Positions 5,688 to 59,698 of a stretch of 64,000 nt of DNA are shown one piece after another. Under the pieces are notes generated by a model. The model was not told the DNA's origin. It saw only the letters and a program-made list of their open reading frames with translations, and made no database searches. The translations under genes and the position numbers were made by a program. The first letter of the stretch is position 1, and each line of letters begins with the position of its first letter. Location of the stretch: the NCBI GenBank assembly GCA_019358855.1, contig JAHHII010000002.1, positions 124,690 through 188,689 of the forward strand. The letters are read 5' to 3'. This DNA is from Timaviella obliquedivisa GSE-PSE-MK23-08B (lineage in GTDB: Bacteria > Cyanobacteriota > Cyanobacteriia > Elainellales > Elainellaceae).

Positions 5688-7001
<1,314 letters not shown>

Positions 7002-19028: not shown

Positions 19029-19505
19029 TTAACGCCTTAGCAGTTAAATTACGATAGAAATTAGAACTTTGCTGAATAGGGAAATAGCATAACTACGGAG
19101 TTCAACGCACTGCTGCCCGTTTCGCATGGCGACAAAGCGCAGGTATGAATCGTCGGGACACGGGAGCAGGTGATGCATTTAACGAACGAGTTTTACGTCA
19201 AAAAGATCGCCAGCGACCCTTGCGGTGTCTGCGAAGCAGCGCGCCTCCACTTCATGTCCATCATGCACCGTTTGCCAGCGGCAAGTACATGAGTGTTTTA
19301 GTACGATAGGACAGCGTTTCAGGAGCGATCGCATTCTATGTCGTCGCTCTTGCAAAAGCGATTACGCACTCTACCCTGCCATTGTGAGTGCTTAACCTGC
19401 TAATTGCGCGTCCTACACTGCCATTGGAACCTAAGACAATCGGATTGCGACTCCAGGCATTGCCTTTGTCCTGCTGACGATTACAATTGTCAACCGATGC
19501 AATGC

Positions 19506-19589
19506 AAATGTGACTCGATACAACGCGAATGTGACTGGATACAATGCGAATGTGACTCGATACAACGCGAATGTGACTGGATACAATGC
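19506..19589. repeat. 21-bp tandem repeat x4 (alternating variants, i.e. 42 bp x2)
   Basis: The units are AAATGTGACTCGATACAACGC, GAATGTGACTGGATACAATGC, GAATGTGACTCGATACAACGC and GAATGTGACTGGATACAATGC. Confidence 0.95.
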
Positions 19590-19819
19590 GATCGCGGGGC
19601 AGTTCCTTGTAAGCATTAGGCGTTGCTAAACAAGAAATGAGAGCAAATCATACTTGAACTCAGCGACACCGAATTTAGCTCTTCTACTTTCTTAGGGAAA
19701 GGGCTAGGGATTAGGCTTAGTTAACTGCGCAGCCAGAGAAACCTCTCCCCATACCCCTCTCCTAAAGGAAAGAGGCTTTGAAGGGGTTCATATTCCACAG
19801 TTTAATAAAGTAAAGTCCT

Positions 19820-40498: not shown

Positions 40499-41128
40499 CT
40501 ATCTTTTTTCTAAAGAATCTGTAAAAATTGCCCCTTCTTCCACCAAGCTCACTTTCACTTCATTTGATAATCCTGGATTATCGCAAAAGATAGTCTGGGC
40601 AGCATTGACCCGACTGAGGTTTGTTTCGCTGAGGCAAGTTTCTCCCAGGTCTGCACCGCGCAAATCTGCCATACTGAGGTCTGCCATACTGAGGTCTGCC
40701 ATACTCAAATCAGCACCTCGCAAGTCTGCGTCACGCAAGTCAACGCCTCTGAGGTTAGCGCCCCGTAAGTCTGCGCCCCGCAAATCTACTCTCCGTAAAT
40801 GGGCAAGGCTGAGATCGGCACCCCGCAAGTCTGTTCCGGTCAAATCGGCACCCATTAACTGAGTGCCTACTAAATAACTGTTGACGAGGCTGGCACCATT
40901 GAGATTGGCTTTGCTGAGGTCGGCTTGCCGCAAATCTGCCTCTACAAAATCAAGTCCTATTAGCTTGGCCCCCACAAGTTTGACACCCACCAAGTCGATC
41001 CCGATATTTTGATTTAACCTTCTCCACTCATTCCAGCTATGAGGCTCTTTAATCAAACGGTTCAGTTGTTCAGCTTTAGTTTGGGCAGCAAGTTGTTTCG
41101 CTAATTCTTGAACATTCGACTGGTTCAC
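40499..41128 (-). CDS. pentapeptide-repeat protein
   Basis: It carries a long run of A(D/N)LxG units, including ADLRGADLRGANLRGVDLRDADLRGADLSMADLSMADLSMADLRGADL. Confidence 0.9.
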   Translation of the reverse strand: MNQSNVQELAKQLAAQTKAEQLNRLIKEPHSWNEWRRLNQNIGIDLVGVKLVGAKLIGLDFVEADLRQADLSKANLNGASLVNSYLVGTQLMGADLTGTDLRGADLSLAHLRRVDLRGADLRGANLRGVDLRDADLRGADLSMADLSMADLSMADLRGADLGETCLSETNLSRVNAAQTIFCDNPGLSNEVKVSLVEEGAIFTDSLEKR

Positions 41129-51714: not shown

Positions 51715-52209
51715 CTAACTCGCTGTGAATTTTAAGGCGACACCGTTCATGCAATAGCGATCGCCTGTAGGTTCAGGGCCATCGTTAAAGACGTGTCCTA
51801 AATGCCCGCCACACCGATGGCAATGAACTTCAGTGCGAGTGGTAAAAAATGATTGATCGACCGATGTTTCGATCGCGCCTTTAATGGGTGCATAAAAGCT
51901 GGGCCAGCCTGTGCCGCTATCGAATTTTGTCTCGGAGGTGAATACGGGCAAAGCACAGGCGGCACAGCTATAGGTGCCTTTGTTGAATTCGTGATCGAGG
52001 GGACTGGTGCCCGATCGCTCGGTGCCTTTTTGGCGCAGTACGTGAAACTGCTCTGGTGTTAAAGTCTTTCGCCATTCGACTTCGGTTTTGGTGACTTCAA
52101 AGGTTTCTAAGGGGGCGGCGATCGCGTCTCGTTTCCAGGGCAAGTAGCGAAATAATGCAGCGATGCCAATTAAGGCGGCACCAGATTGGAGAAAGTAGCG
52201 TTTTTTCAT
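51715..52209 (-). CDS. msrB: peptide-methionine (R)-S-oxide reductase with an export signal
   Basis: CAACALPVF, GWPSFY and HCHRCGGHLGHVFNDGP (SelR motifs) are present. The N-terminus MKKRYFLQSGAALIGIAALF looks like a signal peptide. Confidence 0.9.
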   Translation of the reverse strand: MKKRYFLQSGAALIGIAALFRYLPWKRDAIAAPLETFEVTKTEVEWRKTLTPEQFHVLRQKGTERSGTSPLDHEFNKGTYSCAACALPVFTSETKFDSGTGWPSFYAPIKGAIETSVDQSFFTTRTEVHCHRCGGHLGHVFNDGPEPTGDRYCMNGVALKFTAS

Positions 52210-52282
52210 GGGTAGAGAGTTGGGTGAGGCCCTTAAGGGATCTGCGTGAAAACATAACACCAGTGAGATGCATTAACTTTTA

Positions 52283-52357
52283 GCCCCCTAAATTTCCCAT
52301 TCTGGGGGACTTTGAAAAGTTCGGAAGTCTTGCCCCAGAATGGGGGATTTAGGGGGC
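52283..52357. repeat. palindromic repeat unit (cargo-less hairpin copy of the arms flanking the DUF559 gene)
   Basis: GCCCCCTAAATTTCCCATTCTGGGG (52283-52307) faces CCCCAGAATGGGGGATTTAGGGGGC (52333-52357) with 2 mismatches. The 25-nt spacer is itself partly palindromic (GACTT...AAGTC). Confidence 0.85.
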
Positions 52358-52771
52358 GGTTTGGGACATTATTTAATTGTAACTCCTTAAACAGTATGAG
52401 CGATCGCCCTGAATGTTGCCTGATAGAAAGCTGAGAATTGGCTTCTGCTAATGCTTGTGTAATAATCTTTGTTCCATTTGTTACAGGGGTCGTCCCATTT
52501 ATAAAAATGCTTGTAACCGATGTAGCATTCTTACAACAGAATCTTATCGATAGGATGGCATTAATCAGGTTTGTCAAAGCCTTTGTAACCAATGGGCAAG
52601 GGTTTCTTATGAGCGAGTAGACCTTTTTAGATGGTGGAGCGACCTATTCAATATAAGTACGGAGAAAAGCGGGAAATCTCTGTAAAAAAGATACAATCTC
52701 CTCGGAATTACGGTACTCGGAGCAGGGCTTGCTTGACTACAGTGGGTAGACTGTCATGTAGGAGAGGGCTG

Positions 52772-53200
52772 ATGCCACGCCGGAAAAGAAATTCTCAGGT
52801 TATTGAAAAAGCACAACGCCGATTAGAGTCTTTGCGATCGGTTGATCCATTCTTAAATTTTGGCAACAATCTATCGGTGTCAACTTACACGGAATACATT
52901 GAACAAGGACAACAAGCGATCGCCAAATACAATACGCTGTTGTCGATGGTGGATGAGGCGCAGCAGGATTTAGAAGCGTTGGAGCAACAGATCGCAGACG
53001 TTTCTACGCGGTTGTTGCAAAGCGTGGGCGCACGCTATGGCAAACAAAGTGTGGAATACATGAAGGCAGGGGGAAGACCGCAGTCTTCTAAGCGCAAAAC
53101 GGCGATCGCTTCGTCTACACCCTTGCCTGTCCCGCTATCAACTTCATTGGCTTCAGAAGCCAATGGTTTGGGGCAGAATGGAGTAACTGCTAGAGCTTAA
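52772..53200 (+). CDS. hypothetical protein
   Basis: The ATG at 52772 is preceded by GGAGAG. The 142-aa product has a basic N-terminus (MPRRKRNSQ), a coiled-coil middle and a Ser/Pro-rich tail. Confidence 0.45.
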   Translation: MPRRKRNSQVIEKAQRRLESLRSVDPFLNFGNNLSVSTYTEYIEQGQQAIAKYNTLLSMVDEAQQDLEALEQQIADVSTRLLQSVGARYGKQSVEYMKAGGRPQSSKRKTAIASSTPLPVPLSTSLASEANGLGQNGVTARA

Positions 53201-53309
53201 TTCGGCGTTGCTGAATTAAGGGACGAAAAGAAAAGTTTGCTCTCACCCTAGCCCTCTCCTTGGGGGCTACCATATACACATAAATCTCTGGATATGCTTC
53301 AGTCTTTTT

Positions 53310-53810
53310 CGCCCCCTAAATCCCCCATTCTGGGGGACTTTGAGCAGGAAGATTACAAATGAGTGTGGGCAAACTCTAGTCGTTATCTTCGCTCCATTAA
53401 CTGCATGGATTCTCACCGTATTCGGGGCACTACTCCTAATATAATTGCTGCGGCTCGACAACTTCGACAGCATCTTACTCCGGCTGAAAAGATGCTGTGG
53501 GAAGCCTTAAGAAAACGCCAGATCAAAGGCTTAAAGTTTCGCTGTCAGCATCCAGTTGAGTCTTTTATTGTCGATTTTTATTGTCCACAGCACCGACTTG
53601 TGATTGAAGTGGATGGTGGTATTCATGATCAGCAAGTCGAGTATGATGCTACTCGAACTGAAAGACTCCATCACCTGGGTTATCGAGTAATGCGATTTCG
53701 CAACCGAGAAGTCATCTCAAACTTAAGTCAAGTGCTTCAGCAGATTGCTGAGGCGATCGAGTTTTAGTTCTGCTGCTCAAAGTCCCCCAGAATGGGGGAT
53801 TTAGGGGGCG
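53310..53810. mobile_element. candidate palindrome-bounded cassette: DUF559 endonuclease gene between perfect 38-bp inverted repeats
   Basis: 53310-53347 (CGCCCCCTAAATCCCCCATTCTGGGGGACTTTGAGCAG) is the exact reverse complement of 53773-53810. Mobility is inferred, not shown. Confidence 0.45.
53405..53767 (+). CDS. DUF559 (Vsr/restriction-endonuclease-like fold) domain protein
   Basis: ARQLRQHLTPAEKMLWEALRKRQIKGLKFRCQHPVESFIVDFYCPQHRLVIEVDGGIHD...RTERLHHLGYRVMRFRNREV matches the DUF559 pattern. An alternative GTG start is at 53363. Confidence 0.8.
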   Translation: MDSHRIRGTTPNIIAAARQLRQHLTPAEKMLWEALRKRQIKGLKFRCQHPVESFIVDFYCPQHRLVIEVDGGIHDQQVEYDATRTERLHHLGYRVMRFRNREVISNLSQVLQQIAEAIEF

Positions 53811-54145
53811 GTTCGCTAGGGACTTTGCTAGATTTGATCACTCGTGGGTGCACAATAGCCTAAAGGAGAGGGACAAGAGATCTGGTGCCCTTCTCCCTGG
53901 AGAAAAGGGCGGGGGATAAGGGCAAATTCATCTCTTCTATTCAGCAACGCCCTTAATTCTTTCTTGCTTCGACTTCATTAATCACATAAAAACCAGGTTT
54001 TAGCCTACAAAGACCAGATTTCAGCTTAGGAATCTGGTCTTTATTTGTATTGATCAGAGTATTTACCGAGAAGTGATTTGTATGGGCTGGGCACTTTATA
54101 TGACAAGTCATTTCCTTCCCATCCTCCTAATTAGGTTATTCACTT

Positions 54146-57100
54146 ATGTCTGCGATCGCCCCTGTTAAGTCTCTTGTTTTTATCGATGCCGCTGTCGTTG
54201 ATTACCAAAGTTTGATTGATGGTTTAGTGCCTGGAACTGAGGCGATCGTGCTTGACCCTGCTCAGGATGGGGTTGAGCAAATGACAGCAACGCTGGCGAA
54301 TCGGAGCGACATTCAAAGCGTGCATATTGTCTCGCACGGCAGTTCGGGAAGTCTACAACTGGGGGCGGCAACGCTGAATGGGGAGTCGATCGATCGCTAT
54401 CAAGCACAGCTACAAGGGTGGCGATCGGCGTTGACCGAGGATGCAGATATCTTGCTGTATGGTTGCAACGTCGCTGCTGGAGATACTGGAGCAGCATTTA
54501 TTCAGCAGGTACGACAATTAACAAGGGCTGAAATTGCAGCTTCTGCTCAACCGACAGGCAACCCTGCACTAGGTGGTGACTGGGAATTAGAAATTACAAC
54601 AAAGTCCATGCTGATGCCCCAGGCTTTTTTGCCTGAGGTGCTAGAAGCTTATCCATTTGTGCTGGCACCTCCTGAACTAAGTGGAAATGATAGGGCTGCT
54701 ATTCTAGGTGCTCCTGGTGATCCAGCATGGCTCACTGATGTTGTTAACAAGGTTCAAGCCACAGGACTCTTTAGCTTGGTAGATTCATTCAAGGTGGGAG
54801 GAACGGGGGCTGTCACCCCAACGTTGGCACAGTTGCAAAACTATGGCAGTATTTTGGTCTTCAGTGATACTGGTTTTCAAAACGCAACCCTACTAGGAGA
54901 TACGCTAGCAAACTATGTAGACTCAGGCAGGGGGGTTGTGGTTAGCACCTTTGCTTTAGGGGGTGGTGCTACCTTGGGCGGACGATGGAATACCGGAGGC
55001 TATAGCCCGGTTGTAATTGGCGGTTCATCAACTGGGACAGCCACTCTAGGTACCATATTTAATCCCGCTCACCCCATTGTGCAAGGTGTCTCCAGTTTTA
55101 GCGGGGGTACAAGTAGTTATCGCGCCACTGGGACAGCAAATCCGAGTGCGACAGTGGTTGCGAATTGGAGTGACAACAGACTACTTGCAGTCGATTTGCA
55201 AACCTTTAATGGTGGAATTGTGGGGTTAAATTTTTACCCGCCTTCATCAACTGTAAGAGGAGATTTTTGGAATGCTGCAACCCAAGGTGCCTTGCTCATG
55301 GGGAATGCTCTTGAGTATATAGGAGGTTCAGCGGTAAGGAGCACTGCAACAGAAGATGCGGTTAGTTACAACATTAATTTGCTTGCCAATGCAACAGACC
55401 CTGACGGAGATCCCTTAAATGTCAGTAACCTGATCCTTGCAAGTGGCAATGCTACGGGTGTAACTGTCATTGGCAACGATTTAAGCGTTAGCCCTAGCGC
55501 CTACAACTTCCTGAGCAGTGGTCAAAGCGAAATTATTAACTATAGCTACAACATCATTGATGGCAATGGTGGCAGTATTGCTCAAACTGCCAAAATTACC
55601 ATAACTGGTCTTAACGATGCTCCTGTTTTAACAGGTAGTGCAACGCTGACAGCCATTGATGAAGACGTTTTAGATGTAGCAAATACGGGCACAAAAGTTT
55701 CGGCTTTAATTAACGGACTGATTACCGACGTAGATGGTGATCCGAAAGCGATCGCCATTACAGGCGTAGACAACACCAAGGGCGTTTGGCAATATTCTAC
55801 CGATGGCGGCGCTATTTGGACAAACTTTAGCGCAACCCCCTCTGATGGTACGGCAACTGTCCTGGGTGCTACCTCCTTCTACCAAGCAAGTTTGGGCACT
55901 GCTCCGACTGCTCAAGGGCAATTATCATTCACCAATCTCAACCCTGTTACGCCTGCCCAACTGGGAACGCAAACCTTTGACAGCAGCGGTACCATCCTGA
56001 ACACCGATGTTGATAGCAATATCTATGCTGGCTACAGTAACTTCTCCGGTGCGACTCCGGTTAATCCGCCCTTGCCCAAGCTCGATAACGTAGAGGGTTA
56101 CAGCGTCTCCTTTAACCTACAACTGTTGACGGAATCTCACACCAACTCCAACCGGGCTGGGTTCAGCATCATTGTAGTCAGCAACGACAAAACTAAGGCG
56201 ATCGAACTGGGCTTCCAAGATGGCAACATCTTTGCCCAAAAAGATGCTGGGTTTACAGCGGATGAGAGCGTGACATTCAACACCAAGCAATCCATCGATT
56301 ATCGCTTAGAGGTGTTGGGCAATAGCTACACCCTGTTTGCTAACAACGCTCCCATTCTGACCGGAGCTTTACGCGATTACTCTGCCTTTAGTGGCGCGAT
56401 CGATCCCTACGAAACCCCAAACTTCATCTTTTTAGGCGATGATTCCACCTCTGCCCAGGGCAGCTTTAACCTCAGCCAAGTGGTTGTGCAAACAGATAAC
56501 CGAGTGCGCTTTGTACCAAACGCCAATGAGAACGGAAACTCTACGATTAACTTTAGAGCTTGGGATACAACAGATGGTGCGAGTGCAGGGGCGATCGTTG
56601 ACGCTTCTGTGAACGGAGGCATTAACGCCTATAGTGCTGTCGCTGAAACCGCAACGATCGCCGTCACTGCGGTCAACGATGCTCCCACCATCAGCGGTAC
56701 TCCAGCCGTCACGATCGCTGAAGACAGCCTCTACAGCTTCATTCCTAGTGCGATCGATGTTGATTTAGGCGATTCGCTCACTTTCTCCATCACCAACCAA
56801 CCGACTTGGGCAAGCTTCAATTCTGCCACTGGGGAACTAAGCGGCACACCTATCAATGGCGATGTGGGCACAACCACTGGCATCATCATCAGTGTGAGCG
56901 ATGGTATTGCCCCACCTGTTGATCTGCCAGCATTTGACTTAGCTGTCACAAACACCAACGATGCTCCGACGATCAGTGGTACTCCTGCTGTCACGATCGC
57001 CGAAGATAGCCCTTATAGCTTTATTCCTACTGCGATCGATGTTGATTTAGGCGATACCCTGACCTTCTCCATCGTCAACAAGCCATCTTGGGCAACTTTT

Positions 57101-59698
57101 AACCCTGCCACTGGAGAACTGAGCGGCACACCTATTAATGGCGATGTCGGCACGACCAACGGCATCATCATTAGCGTCAGTGATGGCATTGCTGCACCCG
57201 TTGATCTGCCAGCATTTAACTTAGCGGTCACGAACACCAACGATGCTCCCACCATCAGCGGTACTCCAGCCGTCACGATCGCCGAAGATAGTTCTTATAG
57301 CTTTATTCCTACTGCGATCGATATTGACTCAGGCGATACCCTGACCTTCTCCATCGTCAACAAGCCATCTTGGGCAACTTTTAATCCTGCCACTGGAGAA
57401 CTGAGCGGCACACCTATTAATGGCGATGTCGGCACGACCAACGGCATCATCATTAGTGTCAGTGATGGCATTGCTGCACCTGTTGACCTCCCGGCATTTA
57501 ACCTGGCTGTAACTAACACCAACGATGCTCCGACGATCAGCGGTACTCCAGCAGTAACGATCGCCGAAGATAGTCCTTACAGCTTTATTCCCACAGCTAC
57601 CGATGTTGATTTAGGCGATACGCTCGCCTTCTCCATCGTCAACAAACCGACCTGGGCAACTTTTAACTCTACCACTGGAGAACTGAGCGGCACACCCGTT
57701 AATGGCAATGTTGGCACGACCACTGGCATCATTATCAGCGTTAGCGATGGCACTACTACAGTCGCTCTATCACCATTCGATCTTGGCGTGACCAACGTCA
57801 ACGATGCGCCAACAGTAACGACTGCGATCGTCGATCAAGCTGCTACCGAAGATACTCTTTTCACTTTTGCAGTTCCTCCCAACTCCTTTACTGACATTGA
57901 TGCAGGTGATACCCTTACCTACACTGCCACTCAATCAGACAATGCTCCACTACCTCTTTGGCTCACCTTTAACGCAACCAACCAAACTTTCAGCGGCACG
58001 CCCGCCAATGGTGATATCGGTAACTTCGACATTAAAGTAACGGCTAAAGATAGCGCAAATGCTACGGTCGAAGATATCTTTAGCCTCACCGTTAATAGCG
58101 TTAATGATGCTCCCACCCTCGACAATCCGATCGCCGATCAACCTGCAACTGAAGATACTCTCTTTACCTTCGCAGTTCCTACCAACACCTTTAGTGATGT
58201 TGATACAGGCGATATTCTCACCTACACCGCCACCCAAGCAGACGACACTCCGCTACCCAGTTGGCTCACCTTCAATGCAACCACCCAAACCTTCAGCGGT
58301 ACACCGCTCAATGCCCAAGTCGGCAGCTTAAACGTCAAAGTAAAAGCCACAGATACAGGGCTTTTAACGGCTGAAGATAGCTTTACGATGACGATCGCCA
58401 ACACCAACGACACGCCAACCGTAACGAACGCGATCGCCGATCAATCTGCAACCGAAGACATACCTTTTACCTTCACTCTTCCTACCAACACCTTTACCGA
58501 TGTCGATGCAGGCGACAGCCTTACCTACACCGCTACCCTTGCCAACAGTTCTCCACTCCCAACCTGGCTTGCTTTTAACCCCATCAGCCGCACCTTCAGC
58601 GGCACTCCCCGCAACGCCAACGTTGGCAACCTCGACCTCAAAGTCAAAGTTACAGACAAAGCAGGTGCAATAGCTGAAGATATCTTTGTGGTCAAAGTTG
58701 CCAATGTCAACCAACCCCCAGGGGTTGGCACCCCCATTACTCCTGTCCCTCAACAGGTCACAGCGACCCAAGCCTTCACCCTCAAAATTCCTACAGGCGC
58801 ATTTACCGACCCCGATGCAGGCGACAGCCTCACCTTCTCCGCCAGCCTAGAGAGCGGTGCGCCCCTTCCCCCGTGGCTGGTATTCGACGCTAAAGCCGCA
58901 TCATTTAGTGGTATTCCTGACTTCCCATCAGTCGGTAATTTGTCTCTGAAAGTCAATGCCACTGATGCTCAAGGGTCAAGAACAAGCCAGCTAGTAAGGT
59001 TTACGATCGCCAATCCCACTGGTATTACAGGCATATCGACTGCGTTAATTGACTTTTCGGGTGGCAAAAAAGGCGTTACTCGCAAAGCCAAGAAAGGGCA
59101 GCTTCTACGCGGCACTCACCGGAGCGACATTTTGAGAGGAACTAAGGGGAACGATCGCATCAACAGCGGCAGACGCAGCGATAGTCACGGCAAAGACAAG
59201 CTCTACGGCTTCAATGGCAACGATCGCCTTAAAGCAGGCGGCGGCAATGACTATGTAGATGGCGGTCAGGGCAATGACTTTCTGAAAGGTGGTAGAGGGC
59301 GTGATCTGCTGCTGGGAGGTGAAGGCAATGACAGAATTTTAGGAGGTGATGGCGACGATATTCTCGTGGGCGGTAGCGGGGCTGATATTCTGGCGGGCGG
59401 TAATGGTCGAGATATATTTGCCTTTGCGAATATCAATGAAGGGAAAGATGCGATCGTCGATTTCAGTCCTACTGAAGATTTAATTGATCTCCGCAGCCTC
59501 TTTGCCCAACCTCAATTTGCCGGAGCAACGCCGTACGTCCGCTACCTCAAATATGTGCAGATGACTCAAGTCGGAACCAGCACCGAAATCAAAATTGATG
59601 CGGATGGCAGCGGCGTAGGCAATACATTCACCACTCTGGCAACCTTAAACAACATTGGGATAGGGGCAATGGGTTCTCGCAACTTTGTCATTAGCTAA
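54146..59698 (+). CDS. giant secreted repeat protein: N-terminal DUF4347, cadherin-like/putative-Ig repeats, C-terminal RTX calcium-binding repeats (likely a type I secretion substrate)
   Basis: The N-terminus reads LVFIDAAVVDYQSLIDGL...VHIVSHGSSGSLQLG...LLYGCNVAAGDTGAAFI...GGDWELE. At least nine NDAP-delimited repeats of about 94-101 aa follow. The C-terminal nonapeptides include GGGNDYVDGGQGNDFLKGGRGRDLLLGGEGNDRILGGDGDDILVGGSGADILAGGNGRD. Confidence 0.9.
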   Translation: MSAIAPVKSLVFIDAAVVDYQSLIDGLVPGTEAIVLDPAQDGVEQMTATLANRSDIQSVHIVSHGSSGSLQLGAATLNGESIDRYQAQLQGWRSALTEDADILLYGCNVAAGDTGAAFIQQVRQLTRAEIAASAQPTGNPALGGDWELEITTKSMLMPQAFLPEVLEAYPFVLAPPELSGNDRAAILGAPGDPAWLTDVVNKVQATGLFSLVDSFKVGGTGAVTPTLAQLQNYGSILVFSDTGFQNATLLGDTLANYVDSGRGVVVSTFALGGGATLGGRWNTGGYSPVVIGGSSTGTATLGTIFNPAHPIVQGVSSFSGGTSSYRATGTANPSATVVANWSDNRLLAVDLQTFNGGIVGLNFYPPSSTVRGDFWNAATQGALLMGNALEYIGGSAVRSTATEDAVSYNINLLANATDPDGDPLNVSNLILASGNATGVTVIGNDLSVSPSAYNFLSSGQSEIINYSYNIIDGNGGSIAQTAKITITGLNDAPVLTGSATLTAIDEDVLDVANTGTKVSALINGLITDVDGDPKAIAITGVDNTKGVWQYSTDGGAIWTNFSATPSDGTATVLGATSFYQASLGTAPTAQGQLSFTNLNPVTPAQLGTQTFDSSGTILNTDVDSNIYAGYSNFSGATPVNPPLPKLDNVEGYSVSFNLQLLTESHTNSNRAGFSIIVVSNDKTKAIELGFQDGNIFAQKDAGFTADESVTFNTKQSIDYRLEVLGNSYTLFANNAPILTGALRDYSAFSGAIDPYETPNFIFLGDDSTSAQGSFNLSQVVVQTDNRVRFVPNANENGNSTINFRAWDTTDGASAGAIVDASVNGGINAYSAVAETATIAVTAVNDAPTISGTPAVTIAEDSLYSFIPSAIDVDLGDSLTFSITNQPTWASFNSATGELSGTPINGDVGTTTGIIISVSDGIAPPVDLPAFDLAVTNTNDAPTISGTPAVTIAEDSPYSFIPTAIDVDLGDTLTFSIVNKPSWATFNPATGELSGTPINGDVGTTNGIIISVSDGIAAPVDLPAFNLAVTNTNDAPTISGTPAVTIAEDSSYSFIPTAIDIDSGDTLTFSIVNKPSWATFNPATGELSGTPINGDVGTTNGIIISVSDGIAAPVDLPAFNLAVTNTNDAPTISGTPAVTIAEDSPYSFIPTATDVDLGDTLAFSIVNKPTWATFNSTTGELSGTPVNGNVGTTTGIIISVSDGTTTVALSPFDLGVTNVNDAPTVTTAIVDQAATEDTLFTFAVPPNSFTDIDAGDTLTYTATQSDNAPLPLWLTFNATNQTFSGTPANGDIGNFDIKVTAKDSANATVEDIFSLTVNSVNDAPTLDNPIADQPATEDTLFTFAVPTNTFSDVDTGDILTYTATQADDTPLPSWLTFNATTQTFSGTPLNAQVGSLNVKVKATDTGLLTAEDSFTMTIANTNDTPTVTNAIADQSATEDIPFTFTLPTNTFTDVDAGDSLTYTATLANSSPLPTWLAFNPISRTFSGTPRNANVGNLDLKVKVTDKAGAIAEDIFVVKVANVNQPPGVGTPITPVPQQVTATQAFTLKIPTGAFTDPDAGDSLTFSASLESGAPLPPWLVFDAKAASFSGIPDFPSVGNLSLKVNATDAQGSRTSQLVRFTIANPTGITGISTALIDFSGGKKGVTRKAKKGQLLRGTHRSDILRGTKGNDRINSGRRSDSHGKDKLYGFNGNDRLKAGGGNDYVDGGQGNDFLKGGRGRDLLLGGEGNDRILGGDGDDILVGGSGADILAGGNGRDIFAFANINEGKDAIVDFSPTEDLIDLRSLFAQPQFAGATPYVRYLKYVQMTQVGTSTEIKIDADGSGVGNTFTTLATLNNIGIGAMGSRNFVIS
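56675..57802 (+). repeat. four tandem 282-bp (94-aa) near-identical repeats inside the giant gene
   Basis: Repeat starts (AAC GAT GCT CC., encoding NDAP) lie at 56675, 56957, 57239 and 57521. Repeats 2 and 3 differ at 3 of 94 residues. Confidence 0.95.

What the first reader, a model, noticed from the sequence alone, without database searches (positions are those of the whole stretch)
53310..53810. DUF559 endonuclease gene boxed in by perfect 38-bp inverted repeats: a REPtron-like unit with a Vsr-fold nuclease
Seen: CGCCCCCTAAATCCCCCATTCTGGGGGACTTTGAGCAG at 53310-53347 is the exact reverse complement of 53773-53810. The left arm ends 15 nt before the GTG at 53363 (57 nt before the ATG at 53405). 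The right arm begins 5 nt after the TAG stop (53765-53767). The whole coding unit of a 121-134-aa DUF559 protein is therefore precisely enclosed. Established: DUF559 has the Vsr/type-II-restriction-endonuclease-like fold, and REP-associated tyrosine transposases (RAYTs) sit between inverted REP sequences (REPtrons). Inference: this may be an analogous selfish unit in which a DUF559 nuclease recognises or mobilises the palindromic repeat family that flanks it. Alternatively the arms could form a 38-bp stem in the transcript that controls its stability or translation. I do not know of a description of DUF559 genes as cargo of a palindromic repeat family.
Basis: partly seen in the sequence, partly recalled or inferred. 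Interest (0 to 1): 0.75.

Follow-up and report, generated by a model that had tools for sequence, protein, structure and literature searches.

The report
Nuclease gene nested inside palindromic repeats
A small DNA-cutting enzyme gene (DUF559, Vsr-like) sits at the centre of a dispersed hairpin repeat, and this pairing recurs across bacterial phyla, so it may supply the enzyme partner never identified for the BoxC/triplex-motif repeats.

Summary
A perfect 38-bp inverted repeat (49 nt at 90%) encloses an intact 120-aa DUF559 gene.

The arms are not private to this gene. They belong to a dispersed cyanobacterial repeat, TCCCCC-loop-GGGGGA-TTT-AGGGGG. This has the same three-block design as BoxC/PIT/"intrastrand triplex" motifs. 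Most copies found were gene-less hairpin doublets or single arms; 5 of 117 sampled loci held the gene.

Nearly every cyanobacterial relative of the gene has the same arms, although synonymous sites are near saturation. Homology between copies at different loci stops exactly at the arms. The cassette is absent from the orthologous intergenic region of two relatives.

The cassette is the innermost layer of a nested structure. It lies inside a second palindrome, which lies in the loop of a BoxC hairpin. That hairpin belongs to a 748-bp element with 13-bp terminal repeats and an 8-bp target duplication.

Across 48 DUF559 loci from several phyla, 36 have three-block motifs on both sides, against 4 of 224 control ORFs. 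In enterobacteria, including E. coli ycjD, a BoxC pair sits at the gene's 3' end.

Best reading: a selfish nuclease-and-palindrome unit. Its mechanism, homing-like or RAYT-like, is untested. I found no prior description.

The parts
53310..53347 (.). Left arm of the perfect 38-bp inverted repeat, extending to 53358 at 90%. On the minus strand it reads as a three-block motif: TCCCCC-AGAAT-GGGGGA-TTT-AGGGGG.
   Evidence: Across 187 arms in the metagenome sample, the blocks are 0.94-1.0 conserved and the loops vary.
53773..53810 (.). Right arm, the exact reverse complement of the left arm. The extended arm starts at 53762 and overlaps the stop codon. It is a three-block motif on the plus strand.
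53405..53767 (+). DUF559 (Vsr-like PD-(D/E)XK) endonuclease gene, 120 aa plus stop. It contains the motif E68-V-D70-G-G-I-H74-D75.
   Evidence: Pfam E 1.7e-39. PDB 3HRL E 1.2e-21 and 3R3P (I-Bth0305I) E 6e-4. dN/dS is 0.11-0.28 against homologues. The protein is 46% identical to E. coli YcjD.
53348..53404 (+). Leader between the left arm and the ATG. It is poorly conserved except for the motif GGGCAnnCTnnAG (53367-53379). Its length of about 57-65 nt is constant across copies.
   Evidence: Alignment of 14 units. The motif is retained in register in gene-less doublets with ~100-nt loops.
53264..53309 (.). Left part of the level-1 palindromic insert (GGGCTACCATATACAC...), lying between the BoxC hairpin loop and the left arm.
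   Evidence: The equivalent inverted repeat is a perfect 20-mer in L057.
53811..53860 (.). Right part of the level-1 palindromic insert (...GTGCACAATAGCC).
53236..53259 (-). Left half of a split BoxC/triplex motif: TTTGCTCTCACCC-TAG-CCCTCTCC, blocks 3 and 2 as read on the minus strand. Its block-1 partner GGAGAGGG lies at 53865-53872, on the far side of the ~600-bp insert.
   Evidence: The empty form CCCTCTCC-CAAAA-GGAGAGGGG is seen in the orthologous locus L172.
53865..53926 (+). Right half of the split BoxC motif (GGAGAGGG) followed by a second complete three-block motif, CCCTTCTC-CCTGGA-GAAAAGGG-CGG-GGGATAAG. Together they form a tandem inverted BoxC pair.
   Evidence: The design matches the TMECO motifs listed in PMC4666352.
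53204..53216 (.). Left 13-bp terminal inverted repeat GGCGTTGCTGAAT of the 748-bp outermost element. It is preceded by the 8-bp target-site duplication CTTAATTC (53196-53203).
   Evidence: Homology with the L057 composite runs exactly from 53204 to 53951.
53939..53951 (.). Right 13-bp terminal inverted repeat ATTCAGCAACGCC. It is followed by the 8-bp duplication CTTAATTC (53952-53959).
   Evidence: The same terminal-repeat pair bounds 134-168-bp MITEs with 7-8-bp duplications in other loci.
52237..52387 (.). Gene-less relative: a ~150-bp MITE whose core, 52283-52357, is a hairpin doublet of the same arm family. As ssDNA the doublet folds at -29.5 kcal/mol (z -7.7). The MITE has its own terminal repeat (GGGATCTGCG.../...TAACTCC) and a 3-bp duplication TAA (52234-52236 and 52388-52390).

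Best explanation
The inverted repeat and the DUF559 gene form one genetic unit. A small Vsr/EDxHD-type endonuclease gene occupies the centre of one member of a dispersed family of palindromic three-block repeats: a C-block, its complementary G-block, and a mirror G-block. This is the design of the BoxC/PIT/intrastrand-triplex motifs.

**Shown here**
- The arms bound the unit.
- The unit occurs at many unrelated loci.
- It is absent from orthologous sites in two relatives.
- It can lie in either orientation.
- It has been exchanged between loci.
- It has no target-site duplication.
- The protein is under purifying selection.
- The same gene-plus-three-block-motif association recurs in Clostridia, Chloroflexota, CPR bacteria and Enterobacteriaceae.

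**Inferred mechanism, to which I commit at about 0.4**
1. The nuclease, acting as a dimer like its homologue I-Bth0305I, recognises the inverted arms. It may see them as a duplex palindrome or as an extruded hairpin.
2. It nicks or cuts near the centre of gene-less doublets.
3. Recombinational repair from a gene-bearing copy uses the ~33-nt arms as homology. This copies the cassette in, in either orientation, and keeps the arms homogeneous.

This is homing into a multi-copy palindromic target. At least the commonest class of gene-less doublets (start-to-start spacing 39 nt) is spread as the core of an ordinary MITE, by a transposase supplied in trans. Whether the other classes are MITE cores was not examined. 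The nuclease gene would thus ride inside MITEs as a hyper-parasite.

The other version is RAYT-like. In it, a low-copy gene acts in trans on its flanking repeat family. I rate that version only slightly lower.
For: **The unit and its family**
- The inverted repeat is perfect and far beyond chance.
- The same arms flank the gene in nearly all cyanobacterial relatives.
- dS between the window and L003 or L006 is 1.0-1.2, yet the 33-nt arms are 0-1 mismatch apart. dN/dS is 0.11-0.28.
- The arm is a dispersed repeat. Of these, 5 hold the gene. There are 45 doublets (inverted arm pairs less than 200 nt apart), with mirrored loop variants.

**Mobility and exchange**
- Homology between non-syntenic copies ends at the arms: L006/L007 are 94% identical over 5909-6406, and L021 and L134 match the window over 53311-53810.
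- The gene tree disagrees with synteny. L006-L007 are non-syntenic with dS 0.19, while L006-L009 are syntenic with dS 0.49.
- The element is inverted in place in L007 relative to L008 and L003.
- In the orthologous intergenic region, L172 and L177 lack the cassette, and L176 has a gene-less doublet there.
- Doublets with ~100-nt loops keep the leader motif and the gene's 3' end in register, so they are decayed cassettes.
- There is no target duplication at the arms.

**Across phyla**
- Three-block motifs lie on both sides of 36 of 48 DUF559 genes, and in the inverted configuration in 30 of 48. The figure for control ORFs in the same loci is 4 of 224.
- Motif density is 6.2 per kb near the genes and 0.34 per kb elsewhere.
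- The third block is the mirror of the second in 107 cases, against 20 direct-repeat and 16 wrong-side controls.
- Enterobacterial DUF559 genes sit at four different loci. In the three non-E. coli genera each carries an inverted BoxC pair at its 3' end. In E. coli, ycjD lies 168 nt from TMECO #9.

**The protein**
- It is homologous to a dimeric homing endonuclease that cuts a pseudopalindrome.
Against: - Nuclease activity and its target are untested.
- The gene copy number is low, apparently 1-2 per genome. E. coli has one ycjD for 23 BoxC motifs. Only about 4% of sampled arm loci carry the gene. An efficient homing element would be expected to fill its targets.
- In Phormidesmis the unit is retained at one syntenic locus across species. 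This looks like vertical, RAYT-like inheritance.
- In Enterobacteriaceae the gene lies beside the BoxC pair, not inside it.
- No shared loop sequence marks a fixed insertion point between gene-less and gene-bearing copies.
- The cyanobacterial loci are homologous elements, so they are not independent observations.
- My three-block scanner was designed after I had seen the pattern.
Confidence: 0.62

Rival explanations
1. REPIN/RAYT-like system. DUF559 is a low-copy, mostly vertically inherited enzyme that acts in trans on the three-block repeats flanking it. It generates, disperses or maintains them. The gene-bearing unit is the master copy and the doublets are its dependants.
For: - The gene is flanked by inverted copies of a dispersed family whose commonest paired form is a hairpin doublet.
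- Copy number is 1-2 genes per genome, against roughly 10-30 doublets per gene in the sampled assemblies.
- The unit is retained syntenically across Phormidesmis.
- The arm sequence changes with the DUF559 clade.
- E. coli has a single ycjD and 23 BoxC motifs, and the authors of the BoxC study found no mobility gene for them.
- It also accommodates the enterobacterial layout, with the gene beside the pair.
Against: - A 120-aa nuclease has no known strand-transfer or ligation activity.
- The 39-nt-spacing doublets are cores of MITEs with their own terminal repeats and a co-varying 3-bp target duplication. The BoxC pairs here lie inside MITEs with 8-bp duplications. At least these classes can therefore disperse without DUF559.
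- The gene tree is discordant with locus synteny.
Confidence: 0.3
2. Housekeeping Vsr-like mismatch-repair nuclease. The gene merely lies in a repeat-rich intergenic hotspot, and the flanking palindromes are unrelated to its function.
For: - DUF559 proteins are usually annotated as very-short-patch-repair endonucleases.
- A DUF559 protein, VsrA, is functionally linked to a cytosine methyltransferase in Caulobacter.
- The window's intergenic region is demonstrably a hotspot for palindromic elements.
Against: - Three-block motifs flank 75% of DUF559 genes on both sides, against 1.8% of control ORFs in the same loci.
- Homology between copies ends exactly at the arms.
- The gene sits at many unrelated loci and is absent from orthologous sites.
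- No methyltransferase gene is adjacent.
Confidence: 0.08
3. Cis-regulatory stem. The two arms pair in the transcript to form a 38-bp duplex that controls the stability or translation of the nuclease mRNA, for example as an RNase III site limiting a toxic nuclease.
For: - The long-range stem is predicted to form. The 716-nt composite folds at -138.5 kcal/mol with z -8.3, arms paired.
- The arms lie just outside the coding region in every copy.
Against: - The arms are a dispersed family that mostly occurs without the gene.
- About half of the gene-bearing copies have unmatched loop bases between their two arms.
- Promoter-like and terminator-like sites in the region were no more frequent than in shuffles.
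- This reading does not explain mobility or the cross-phylum three-block design. It may still be a secondary role.
Confidence: 0.1
4. Classical autonomous transposon. DUF559 is the transposase, the arms are its terminal inverted repeats, and the doublets are its internally deleted MITEs.
For: - Intermediate deletion derivatives exist: ~100-nt loops keep both ends of the cassette, and L050 and L015 carry truncated genes.
- The 748-bp composite carrying the gene has terminal repeats and an 8-bp duplication, and it occurs at a second locus.
Against: - There is no target duplication at the arms.
- The duplications belong to outer layers whose terminal repeats are different sequences, shared with gene-less MITE families.
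- The protein is a bare 120-aa nuclease domain.
Confidence: 0.07

Closest known systems
REPtrons / REPIN-RAYT systems (own knowledge: Nunvar 2010; Bertels & Rainey 2011)
   Same: An enzyme gene is flanked by inverted copies of a short palindromic repeat. That repeat is dispersed through the genome, largely as hairpin-forming doublets. The gene is low in copy number, and the repeat sequence differs between enzyme clades.
   Different: The enzyme is a Vsr-fold PD-(D/E)XK nuclease, not an HUH tyrosine transposase. The repeat is a three-block motif (hairpin plus mirror block), not a simple REP. Many of the gene-less doublets here are embedded in MITEs that have their own terminal repeats and target duplications.
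BoxC / PIT / intrastrand triplex motifs (TM, TMECO; Holder et al. 2015, PMC4666352)
   Same: The outer layer of the window element is a canonical tandem inverted BoxC pair. The 38-bp arms have the same block design (C-block, G-block, mirror G-block). E. coli TMECO #9 lies 168 nt from ycjD, a 46%-identical DUF559 gene.
   Different: BoxC/TM was described as an orphan repeat. [quoted passage not shown] Here a specific nuclease gene family is found next to or inside such motifs in several phyla. The arms use 5-6-nt C/G blocks rather than CCCTCTCCC/GGGAGAGGG/GGGTGAGGG.
EDxHD (Vsr-like) homing endonucleases, prototype I-Bth0305I (PMC3239194; PMC2677866)
   Same: The catalytic domains are homologous (3R3P, E 6e-4). 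I-Bth0305I is a dimer that cuts a pseudopalindromic site. The window gene lies at the centre of a palindrome, lacks a target duplication, and shows locus-to-locus exchange consistent with homing.
   Different: There is no intron or intein host, and no ~160-aa N-terminal DNA-binding region. The presumed target is a non-coding multi-copy repeat. Target occupancy is very low.
Vsr / VsrA very-short-patch repair nucleases (PMC12907096)
   Same: They share the same fold, and VsrA contains a DUF559 domain. VsrA can also be a solitary gene with no adjacent methyltransferase.
   Different: Nothing in the papers read here describes flanking palindromic repeats or mobility for Vsr. No methyltransferase is linked to the window gene.
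MITEs, and nested small dispersed repeats of cyanobacteria (own knowledge: Elhai et al. 2008, Genome Res)
   Same: Both outer layers and the gene-less doublets are MITE-like, with terminal repeats and 3-bp or 8-bp target duplications. Small palindromic modules are nested within one another's hairpin loops.
   Different: The innermost module carries a protein gene and has no target duplication. No transposase gene is present.

Membership tests
Pfam DUF559 / Vsr-like PD-(D/E)XK nucleases | Match to PF04480 above the gathering score. | tested here: met
   134.5 bits against a cut-off of 20.6, E 1.7e-39, covering profile positions 5-108 of 109.
Pfam DUF559 / Vsr-like PD-(D/E)XK nucleases | Homology to a solved DUF559 structure, and retention of the E-x-D...H-D acidic/histidine motif. 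| tested here: met
   3HRL at E 1.2e-21. IEVDGGIHD aligns with VEADGGQHA. The motif is kept in the 12 cyanobacterial homologues translated alongside the window gene.
Vsr very-short-patch repair | Genetic or functional link to a C5-cytosine methyltransferase, with T:G mismatch nicking. | tested here: not met
   Neighbouring genes are msrB, a 142-aa hypothetical protein and a giant DUF4347/cadherin-like protein. No methyltransferase is adjacent. Enzymatic activity is not testable with these tools.
EDxHD homing endonucleases (I-Bth0305I) | Catalytic-domain similarity. | tested here: met
   3R3P at E 6.2e-4 over residues 44-115. The match is weak.
EDxHD homing endonucleases (I-Bth0305I) | Residence in a group I intron or intein, or as a free-standing gene within a host gene; a long N-terminal DNA-binding region. 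| tested here: not met
   The gene is intergenic and lies inside a non-coding palindrome. The protein is only 120 aa. Compare PMC3239194.
EDxHD homing endonucleases (I-Bth0305I) | Cleavage of the empty allele, followed by copying of the gene into it. | not testable with these tools
   The evidence is only indirect: arm-bounded homology, a gene tree discordant with synteny, and empty orthologous sites.
REPtron / REPIN-RAYT | An HUH Y1 (IS200/IS605-like) transposase gene. | tested here: not met
   Only DUF559 and related nuclease profiles match.
REPtron / REPIN-RAYT | Gene flanked by inverted copies of a dispersed palindromic repeat that mostly occurs as gene-less doublets. | tested here: met
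   5 of 117 arm loci hold the gene, and 45 doublets (inverted arm pairs less than 200 nt apart) were found.
REPtron / REPIN-RAYT | Single-copy, vertically inherited gene; repeats that depend on it for spread. | tested here: inconclusive
   Only 1-2 loci per genome were found, and the unit is retained syntenically in Phormidesmis. Against this, the gene tree is discordant, and the 39-nt-spacing doublets lie inside MITEs with their own terminal repeats and duplications.
BoxC / PIT / intrastrand triplex motif | Three consecutive blocks: a pyrimidine block, its complement, and a mirror purine-rich block (A to T allowed). | tested here: met
   The arms read TCCCCC-AGAAT-GGGGGA-TTT-AGGGGG. The outer motifs are CCCTCTCC/GGAGAGGG/GGGTGAGAG and CCCTTCTC/GAAAAGGG/GGGATAAG. 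Control for the mirror rule: 107 against 20 and 16.
BoxC / PIT / intrastrand triplex motif | Actual formation of an intrastrand triplex. | not testable with these tools
   Only hairpin folding could be computed. Triplex formation was shown for the E. coli motif in PMC4666352.
MITE / insertion sequence | Terminal inverted repeats with a flanking target-site duplication. | tested here: met
   This holds for the outer 748-bp element (13-bp repeats, 8-bp CTTAATTC duplication) and for the MITE around the gene-less doublet (3-bp TAA). It does NOT hold for the arm-bounded cassette itself.
MITE / insertion sequence | A recognised (DDE, HUH or serine) transposase encoded in the autonomous form. | tested here: not met
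   DUF559 is the only ORF of 60 aa or more in the element with a family match. One 68-aa antisense ORF overlaps the left arm. The others are shorter antisense ORFs.

The most novel reading that the evidence does not exclude
DUF559 nucleases are the cognate enzymes of the BoxC/PIT/intrastrand-triplex class of three-block palindromic repeats across bacterial phyla. These repeats have lacked any associated enzyme since the 1990s. On this reading the nuclease recognises the folded or palindromic motif and its cuts drive three things:
- the copying of the gene;
- the homogenisation of the repeats;
- the genomic instability reported at BoxC/TM loci.

This would be a new class of nuclease-driven selfish repeat system that can nest inside MITEs.
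Probability: 0.4. Interest if true: 0.9.

Novelty: new variant of a known kind. Interest (0 to 1): 0.8.

Why it matters
[quoted passage not shown] They are associated with genome rearrangement. No enzyme, origin or spreading mechanism has been assigned to them (PMC4666352).

DUF559 is a very large protein family with almost no assigned function.

If the two belong together, three things follow:
- Both problems become directly testable in E. coli, using ycjD and the 23 TMECO sites.
- It would be, to my knowledge, the first repeat-and-enzyme partnership built on a Vsr-fold nuclease instead of a transposase.
- It would give a compact dimeric nuclease with a long, possibly structure-dependent recognition site.

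Even the minimal reading is new to the literature I could search. That reading is a nuclease gene that lives at the centre of palindromic MITE cores and moves between them without leaving target duplications.

Tried and rejected
- **Rfam.** A scan of 52000-54200 gave only sub-threshold matches to microRNA-precursor hairpin models. There is no known RNA family.
- **Promoters and terminators.** A scan found nothing beyond shuffle expectation. The arms lack a T-tract, so they are not intrinsic terminators.
- **Exact-protein look-ups.** The window's DUF559 protein and its 189-aa neighbour ORF are not on record. I reached orthologous loci through homologues of the neighbour instead.
- **Plasmids.** There were only three weak coding-region hits and no arm matches.
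- **Viral contigs.** Neither the arm nor a relative of the protein was found. A phage origin is rejected.
- **Target duplication at the arms.** None was found in 14 units.
- **Empty site in Phormidesmis-type loci.** All three syntenic genomes carry the unit. L126 shares only one flank, so it is not informative.
- **Fixed insertion point.** Comparing loops of gene-less doublets with the inner junctions of cassettes showed no shared sequence beyond TGA/TCA.
- **Apparent in-situ inversion of the window's gene-less doublet in L176.** I discounted this, because a palindrome aligns in both orientations.
- **Literature.** Nine full-text searches were run, covering DUF559, Vsr-like with homing, ycjD, the arm sequence itself, REPIN with VSP, boxC, and intrastrand triplex. 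None found a paper linking DUF559 to palindromic repeats.
- **Not run.** I did not run structure prediction, because homology to 3HRL already fixes the fold.
Full report
**1. The observation**

The 38-mer at 53310-53347 and its exact reverse complement at 53773-53810 are real. They are the only two matches in 64 kb even when 3 mismatches are allowed, and none is expected by chance. The repeat finder extends the arms to 49 nt at 90%, so the right arm overlaps the stop codon.

The enclosed ORF is DUF559 (Pfam E 1.7e-39). It is homologous to the solved DUF559 protein 3HRL (E 1e-21). It is more weakly homologous to the catalytic domain of the homing endonuclease I-Bth0305I (3R3P, E 6e-4). The true start is the ATG at 53405, giving 120 aa, because all close homologues start there.

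**2. The arms belong to a dispersed family**

A gene-less hairpin of the same sequence lies 1 kb upstream, at 52283-52357. As ssDNA it folds at -29.5 kcal/mol, z -7.7.

- Five hold a DUF559 gene between two arms.
- There are 45 doublets, meaning inverted arm pairs less than 200 nt apart. The commonest start-to-start spacings are 39 nt and 46-49 nt.
- The remaining loci show a single arm.

Within doublets, variants of the 5-nt loop are mirrored in the two arms: ATTTT/AAAAT, ATGCT/AGCAT, AATCT/AGATT. The C and G runs are the most conserved positions.

**3. From the gene's side the association is close to complete**

The gene's relatives in GTDB species representatives gave 53 loci. Nearly every cyanobacterial locus has GCCCCCTAAATCCCCCATTCTGGGGGACTTTGA in inverted orientation. 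The left copy lies about 60-95 nt before the ATG and the right copy about 15 nt after the stop. These loci come from Phormidesmis, Leptolyngbyales, Acaryochloris, Petrachloros and Pseudanabaenaceae. A Thermosynechococcaceae locus carries the same arms with a variant loop.

In the alignment of 14 units:
- the arms are nearly invariant;
- the leader barely aligns, apart from the motif GGGCAnnCTTGnAGAAG;
- the coding region is about 75% identical at the nucleotide level.

Synonymous divergence between the window and L003 or L006 is 1.0-1.2, yet the arms differ by 0-1 base. dN/dS is 0.11-0.28, so the protein is functional.

**4. The arm-bounded cassette behaves as a movable or convertible unit**

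- Non-syntenic copies are homologous exactly from arm to arm. L006 and L007 are 94% identical over 5909-6406. L021 and L134 match the window over 53311-53810.
- Gene relatedness contradicts synteny. L006 and L007 lie at different loci with dS 0.19. L006 and L009 lie at the same locus with dS 0.49.
- In L007 the element is inverted relative to flanks that are 95% identical to those of L008.
- No target-site duplication borders the arms.
- Doublets with ~100-nt loops keep the leader motif and the gene's 3' end at the same offsets from the arms. They are decayed cassettes. L015 and L050 carry truncated genes.

**5. Presence/absence at the window's own locus**

I used homologues of the upstream 142-aa protein (85-89% identical) to fetch orthologous loci. 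The gene order msrB, 142-aa gene, intergenic region, giant DUF4347 protein is conserved.

| Locus | Intergenic region |
|---|---|
| Window | 945 nt |
| L172 | about 400 nt; no arms, no DUF559 |
| L177 | about 480 nt; no arms, no DUF559 |

The details differ between relatives:
- L172 holds only a tandem inverted BoxC pair.
- L177 holds the same outer ends plus part of the next layer.
- L176 has a gene-less arm doublet there.
- L174 and L175, the closest relatives, match the window up to 8 nt before the left arm, where their contigs end.

The MAG that supplied L177 carries its own DUF559 unit on another contig (L021).

**6. A nested structure**

The cassette (level 2) lies inside a second palindrome, level 1, at 53264-53860. 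The inverted repeat of level 1 is GGGCTACC.T.TACAC, which is a perfect 20-mer in L057.

Level 1 sits in the loop of a BoxC hairpin. The window reads CCCTCTCC-TTGG[...]TAAA-GGAGAGGG. The empty form in L172 reads CCCTCTCC-CAAAA-GGAGAGGGG.

That BoxC pair belongs to level 0, a 748-bp element at 53204-53951. It has perfect 13-bp terminal repeats (GGCGTTGCTGAAT) and an 8-bp direct duplication, CTTAATTC. The same terminal repeats bound 134-168-bp MITEs with 7-8-bp duplications in many other loci. They also bound a second, 751-bp DUF559-bearing composite in L057, whose homology with the window runs exactly from 53204 to 53951.

The gene-less doublets with 39-nt spacing, including the window's, form the core of another MITE family. 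Its terminal repeat is GGGAGTTGCG.../...GCAACTCCC. Its 3-bp duplication is TAA or TTA on both sides of each copy. That class therefore spreads as an ordinary MITE, and DUF559 is not needed for this. I did not examine whether the other spacing classes and the single arms are also MITE cores.

The whole composite folds into nested long-range stems at -138.5 kcal/mol, z -8.3.

**7. The link to BoxC and triplex motifs**

The outer motif is the BoxC/PIT/"TM" repeat. It is CCCTCTCCC-loop-GGGAGAGGG-TTA-GGGTGAGGG, with 23 copies in E. coli K-12, and is reported in more than 260 genomes. [quoted passage not shown]

The 38-bp arm has the same design with shorter blocks: TCCCCC-AGAAT-GGGGGA-TTT-AGGGGG.

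DUF559 genes from other phyla are flanked by motifs of this design with different block sequences:

| Lineage | Blocks |
|---|---|
| Clostridia | CTCTCCC / GGGAGAG / GAGAGGG |
| Clostridia | CCTTCCTC / GAGGAAGG / GGAAGGAG |
| Clostridia | CTCCCTC / GAGGGAG / GAGGGAG |
| Magasanikbacteria | CTCCCCCT / AGGGGGAG / GAGGGGGT |
| Anaerolineae | full BoxC-type motifs directly flanking the gene |

The quantitative tests were these:
- Of 48 DUF559 genes with complete flanks, 36 have such motifs on both sides, and 30 have them in the inverted configuration. The figure for other ORFs in the same loci is 4 of 224.
- The third block is the mirror of the second far more often than it is a direct repeat or lies on the wrong side: 107 against 20 and 16.

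**8. Enterobacteria give an independent check**

YcjD is 46% identical to the window protein. TMECO #9 lies 168 nt from ycjD.

In Enterobacter asburiae, Phytobacter and Klebsiella quasipneumoniae, the DUF559 gene sits at three further loci. In each, an antisense BoxC motif overlaps the last codons, with the stop codon in the hairpin loop. A sense motif follows 10-190 nt downstream.

ycjD is a single-copy gene present in 3378 of 5426 complete E. coli genomes. It occupies the position of the eefRABCD operon (PMC12817139).

**9. Interpretation**

What is shown is a specific, recurrent physical association between DUF559 genes and three-block palindromic repeats. For the window's clade, what is also shown is an arm-bounded cassette that is polymorphic, exchangeable between loci and free of target duplications.

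That the nuclease recognises the motif is an inference. It rests on the association and on homology to a dimeric endonuclease that cuts a pseudopalindrome.

Two mechanisms fit:
- **Homing-like copying into gene-less doublets.** This is favoured by the central position of the gene, the arm-bounded homology, the occurrence in either orientation, the decayed cassettes, and the independent MITE-type spread of the 39-nt-spacing doublets.
- **RAYT-like action in trans.** This is favoured by the low gene copy number, syntenic retention in Phormidesmis, and the enterobacterial layout.

I commit to the first at about 0.4 and put the second at about 0.3.

A purely housekeeping Vsr role, an mRNA stem, and a classical transposon are each unlikely as the main explanation.

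**10. Novelty**

Nine full-text searches found no paper that connects DUF559 with palindromic repeats, BoxC or triplex motifs. The library lacks most subscription-journal papers, so this is not proof of absence.

**Caveats**
- The cyanobacterial loci are related elements, not independent samples.
- The three-block scanner was written after I had seen the pattern, although the control-ORF and mirror-rule controls are fair.
- Genome-wide copy numbers were not obtainable.

Noticed in passing
L171 (E. coli K-12 NC_000913 1351204-1351760): The last ~45 nt of ycjD are duplicated downstream, between a degenerate antisense BoxC motif at the stop codon and TMECO #9. ycjD plus BoxC occupies the slot where other phylogroups carry the eefRABCD efflux operon. 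ycjD is present in 62% of complete E. coli genomes, always as a single copy.
   Followed up: partly
L007 5848-6485 versus L008 5851-6484: The ~640-bp DUF559 element is inverted in place between two Phormidesmis-like genomes whose flanks are 95% identical. The BoxC pair at the window's orthologous site in L172 also aligns better in reverse orientation.
   Followed up: partly
L003 5336-5919 (Phormidesmis priestleyi ULC007): Four same-strand copies of the left arm lie 185 nt apart, immediately upstream of the DUF559 gene. The arm-containing segment has been duplicated in tandem.
   Followed up: no
L174, L175, L176, L180-L182: Short-read contigs end within a few bases of the arms or of the BoxC motif at the gene's 3' end. 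These repeats break assemblies, so DUF559 units are probably under-represented in draft genomes.
   Followed up: no
window 19475-19600: About six tandem copies of a 21-nt unit (GATACAATGCGAATGTGACTC) lie in an intergenic stretch.
   Followed up: no
window 54146-59698: A giant 1850-aa protein lies immediately downstream. Its orthologue in L172 carries DUF4347, cadherin-like and HemolysinCabind domains. The gene has internal 282-nt and 303-nt tandem repeats at 56674-58878.
   Followed up: no
window 40647-40940: A 24-nt motif (AGGTCTGCACCGCGCAAATCTGCC-like) recurs five times at spacings of 45-105 nt, inside the minus-strand ORF 40499-41128.
   Followed up: no
window, throughout (e.g. 53100-53107, 53754-53761, 52402-52409): The octamer GCGATCGC (HIP1) is very frequent, which marks the source as a cyanobacterium. 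The best relatives are Phormidesmis- and Leptolyngbyaceae-like. The source genome itself is not among the GTDB species representatives searched.
   Followed up: partly
L078 2109-2180, L097 4447-4519, L143 2905-2985, L010 6369-6398: In some doublets the 5-nt loop of the small hairpin is the same on both arms (ATTCT/ATTCT) instead of mirrored. The loop has flipped within one arm.
   Followed up: no
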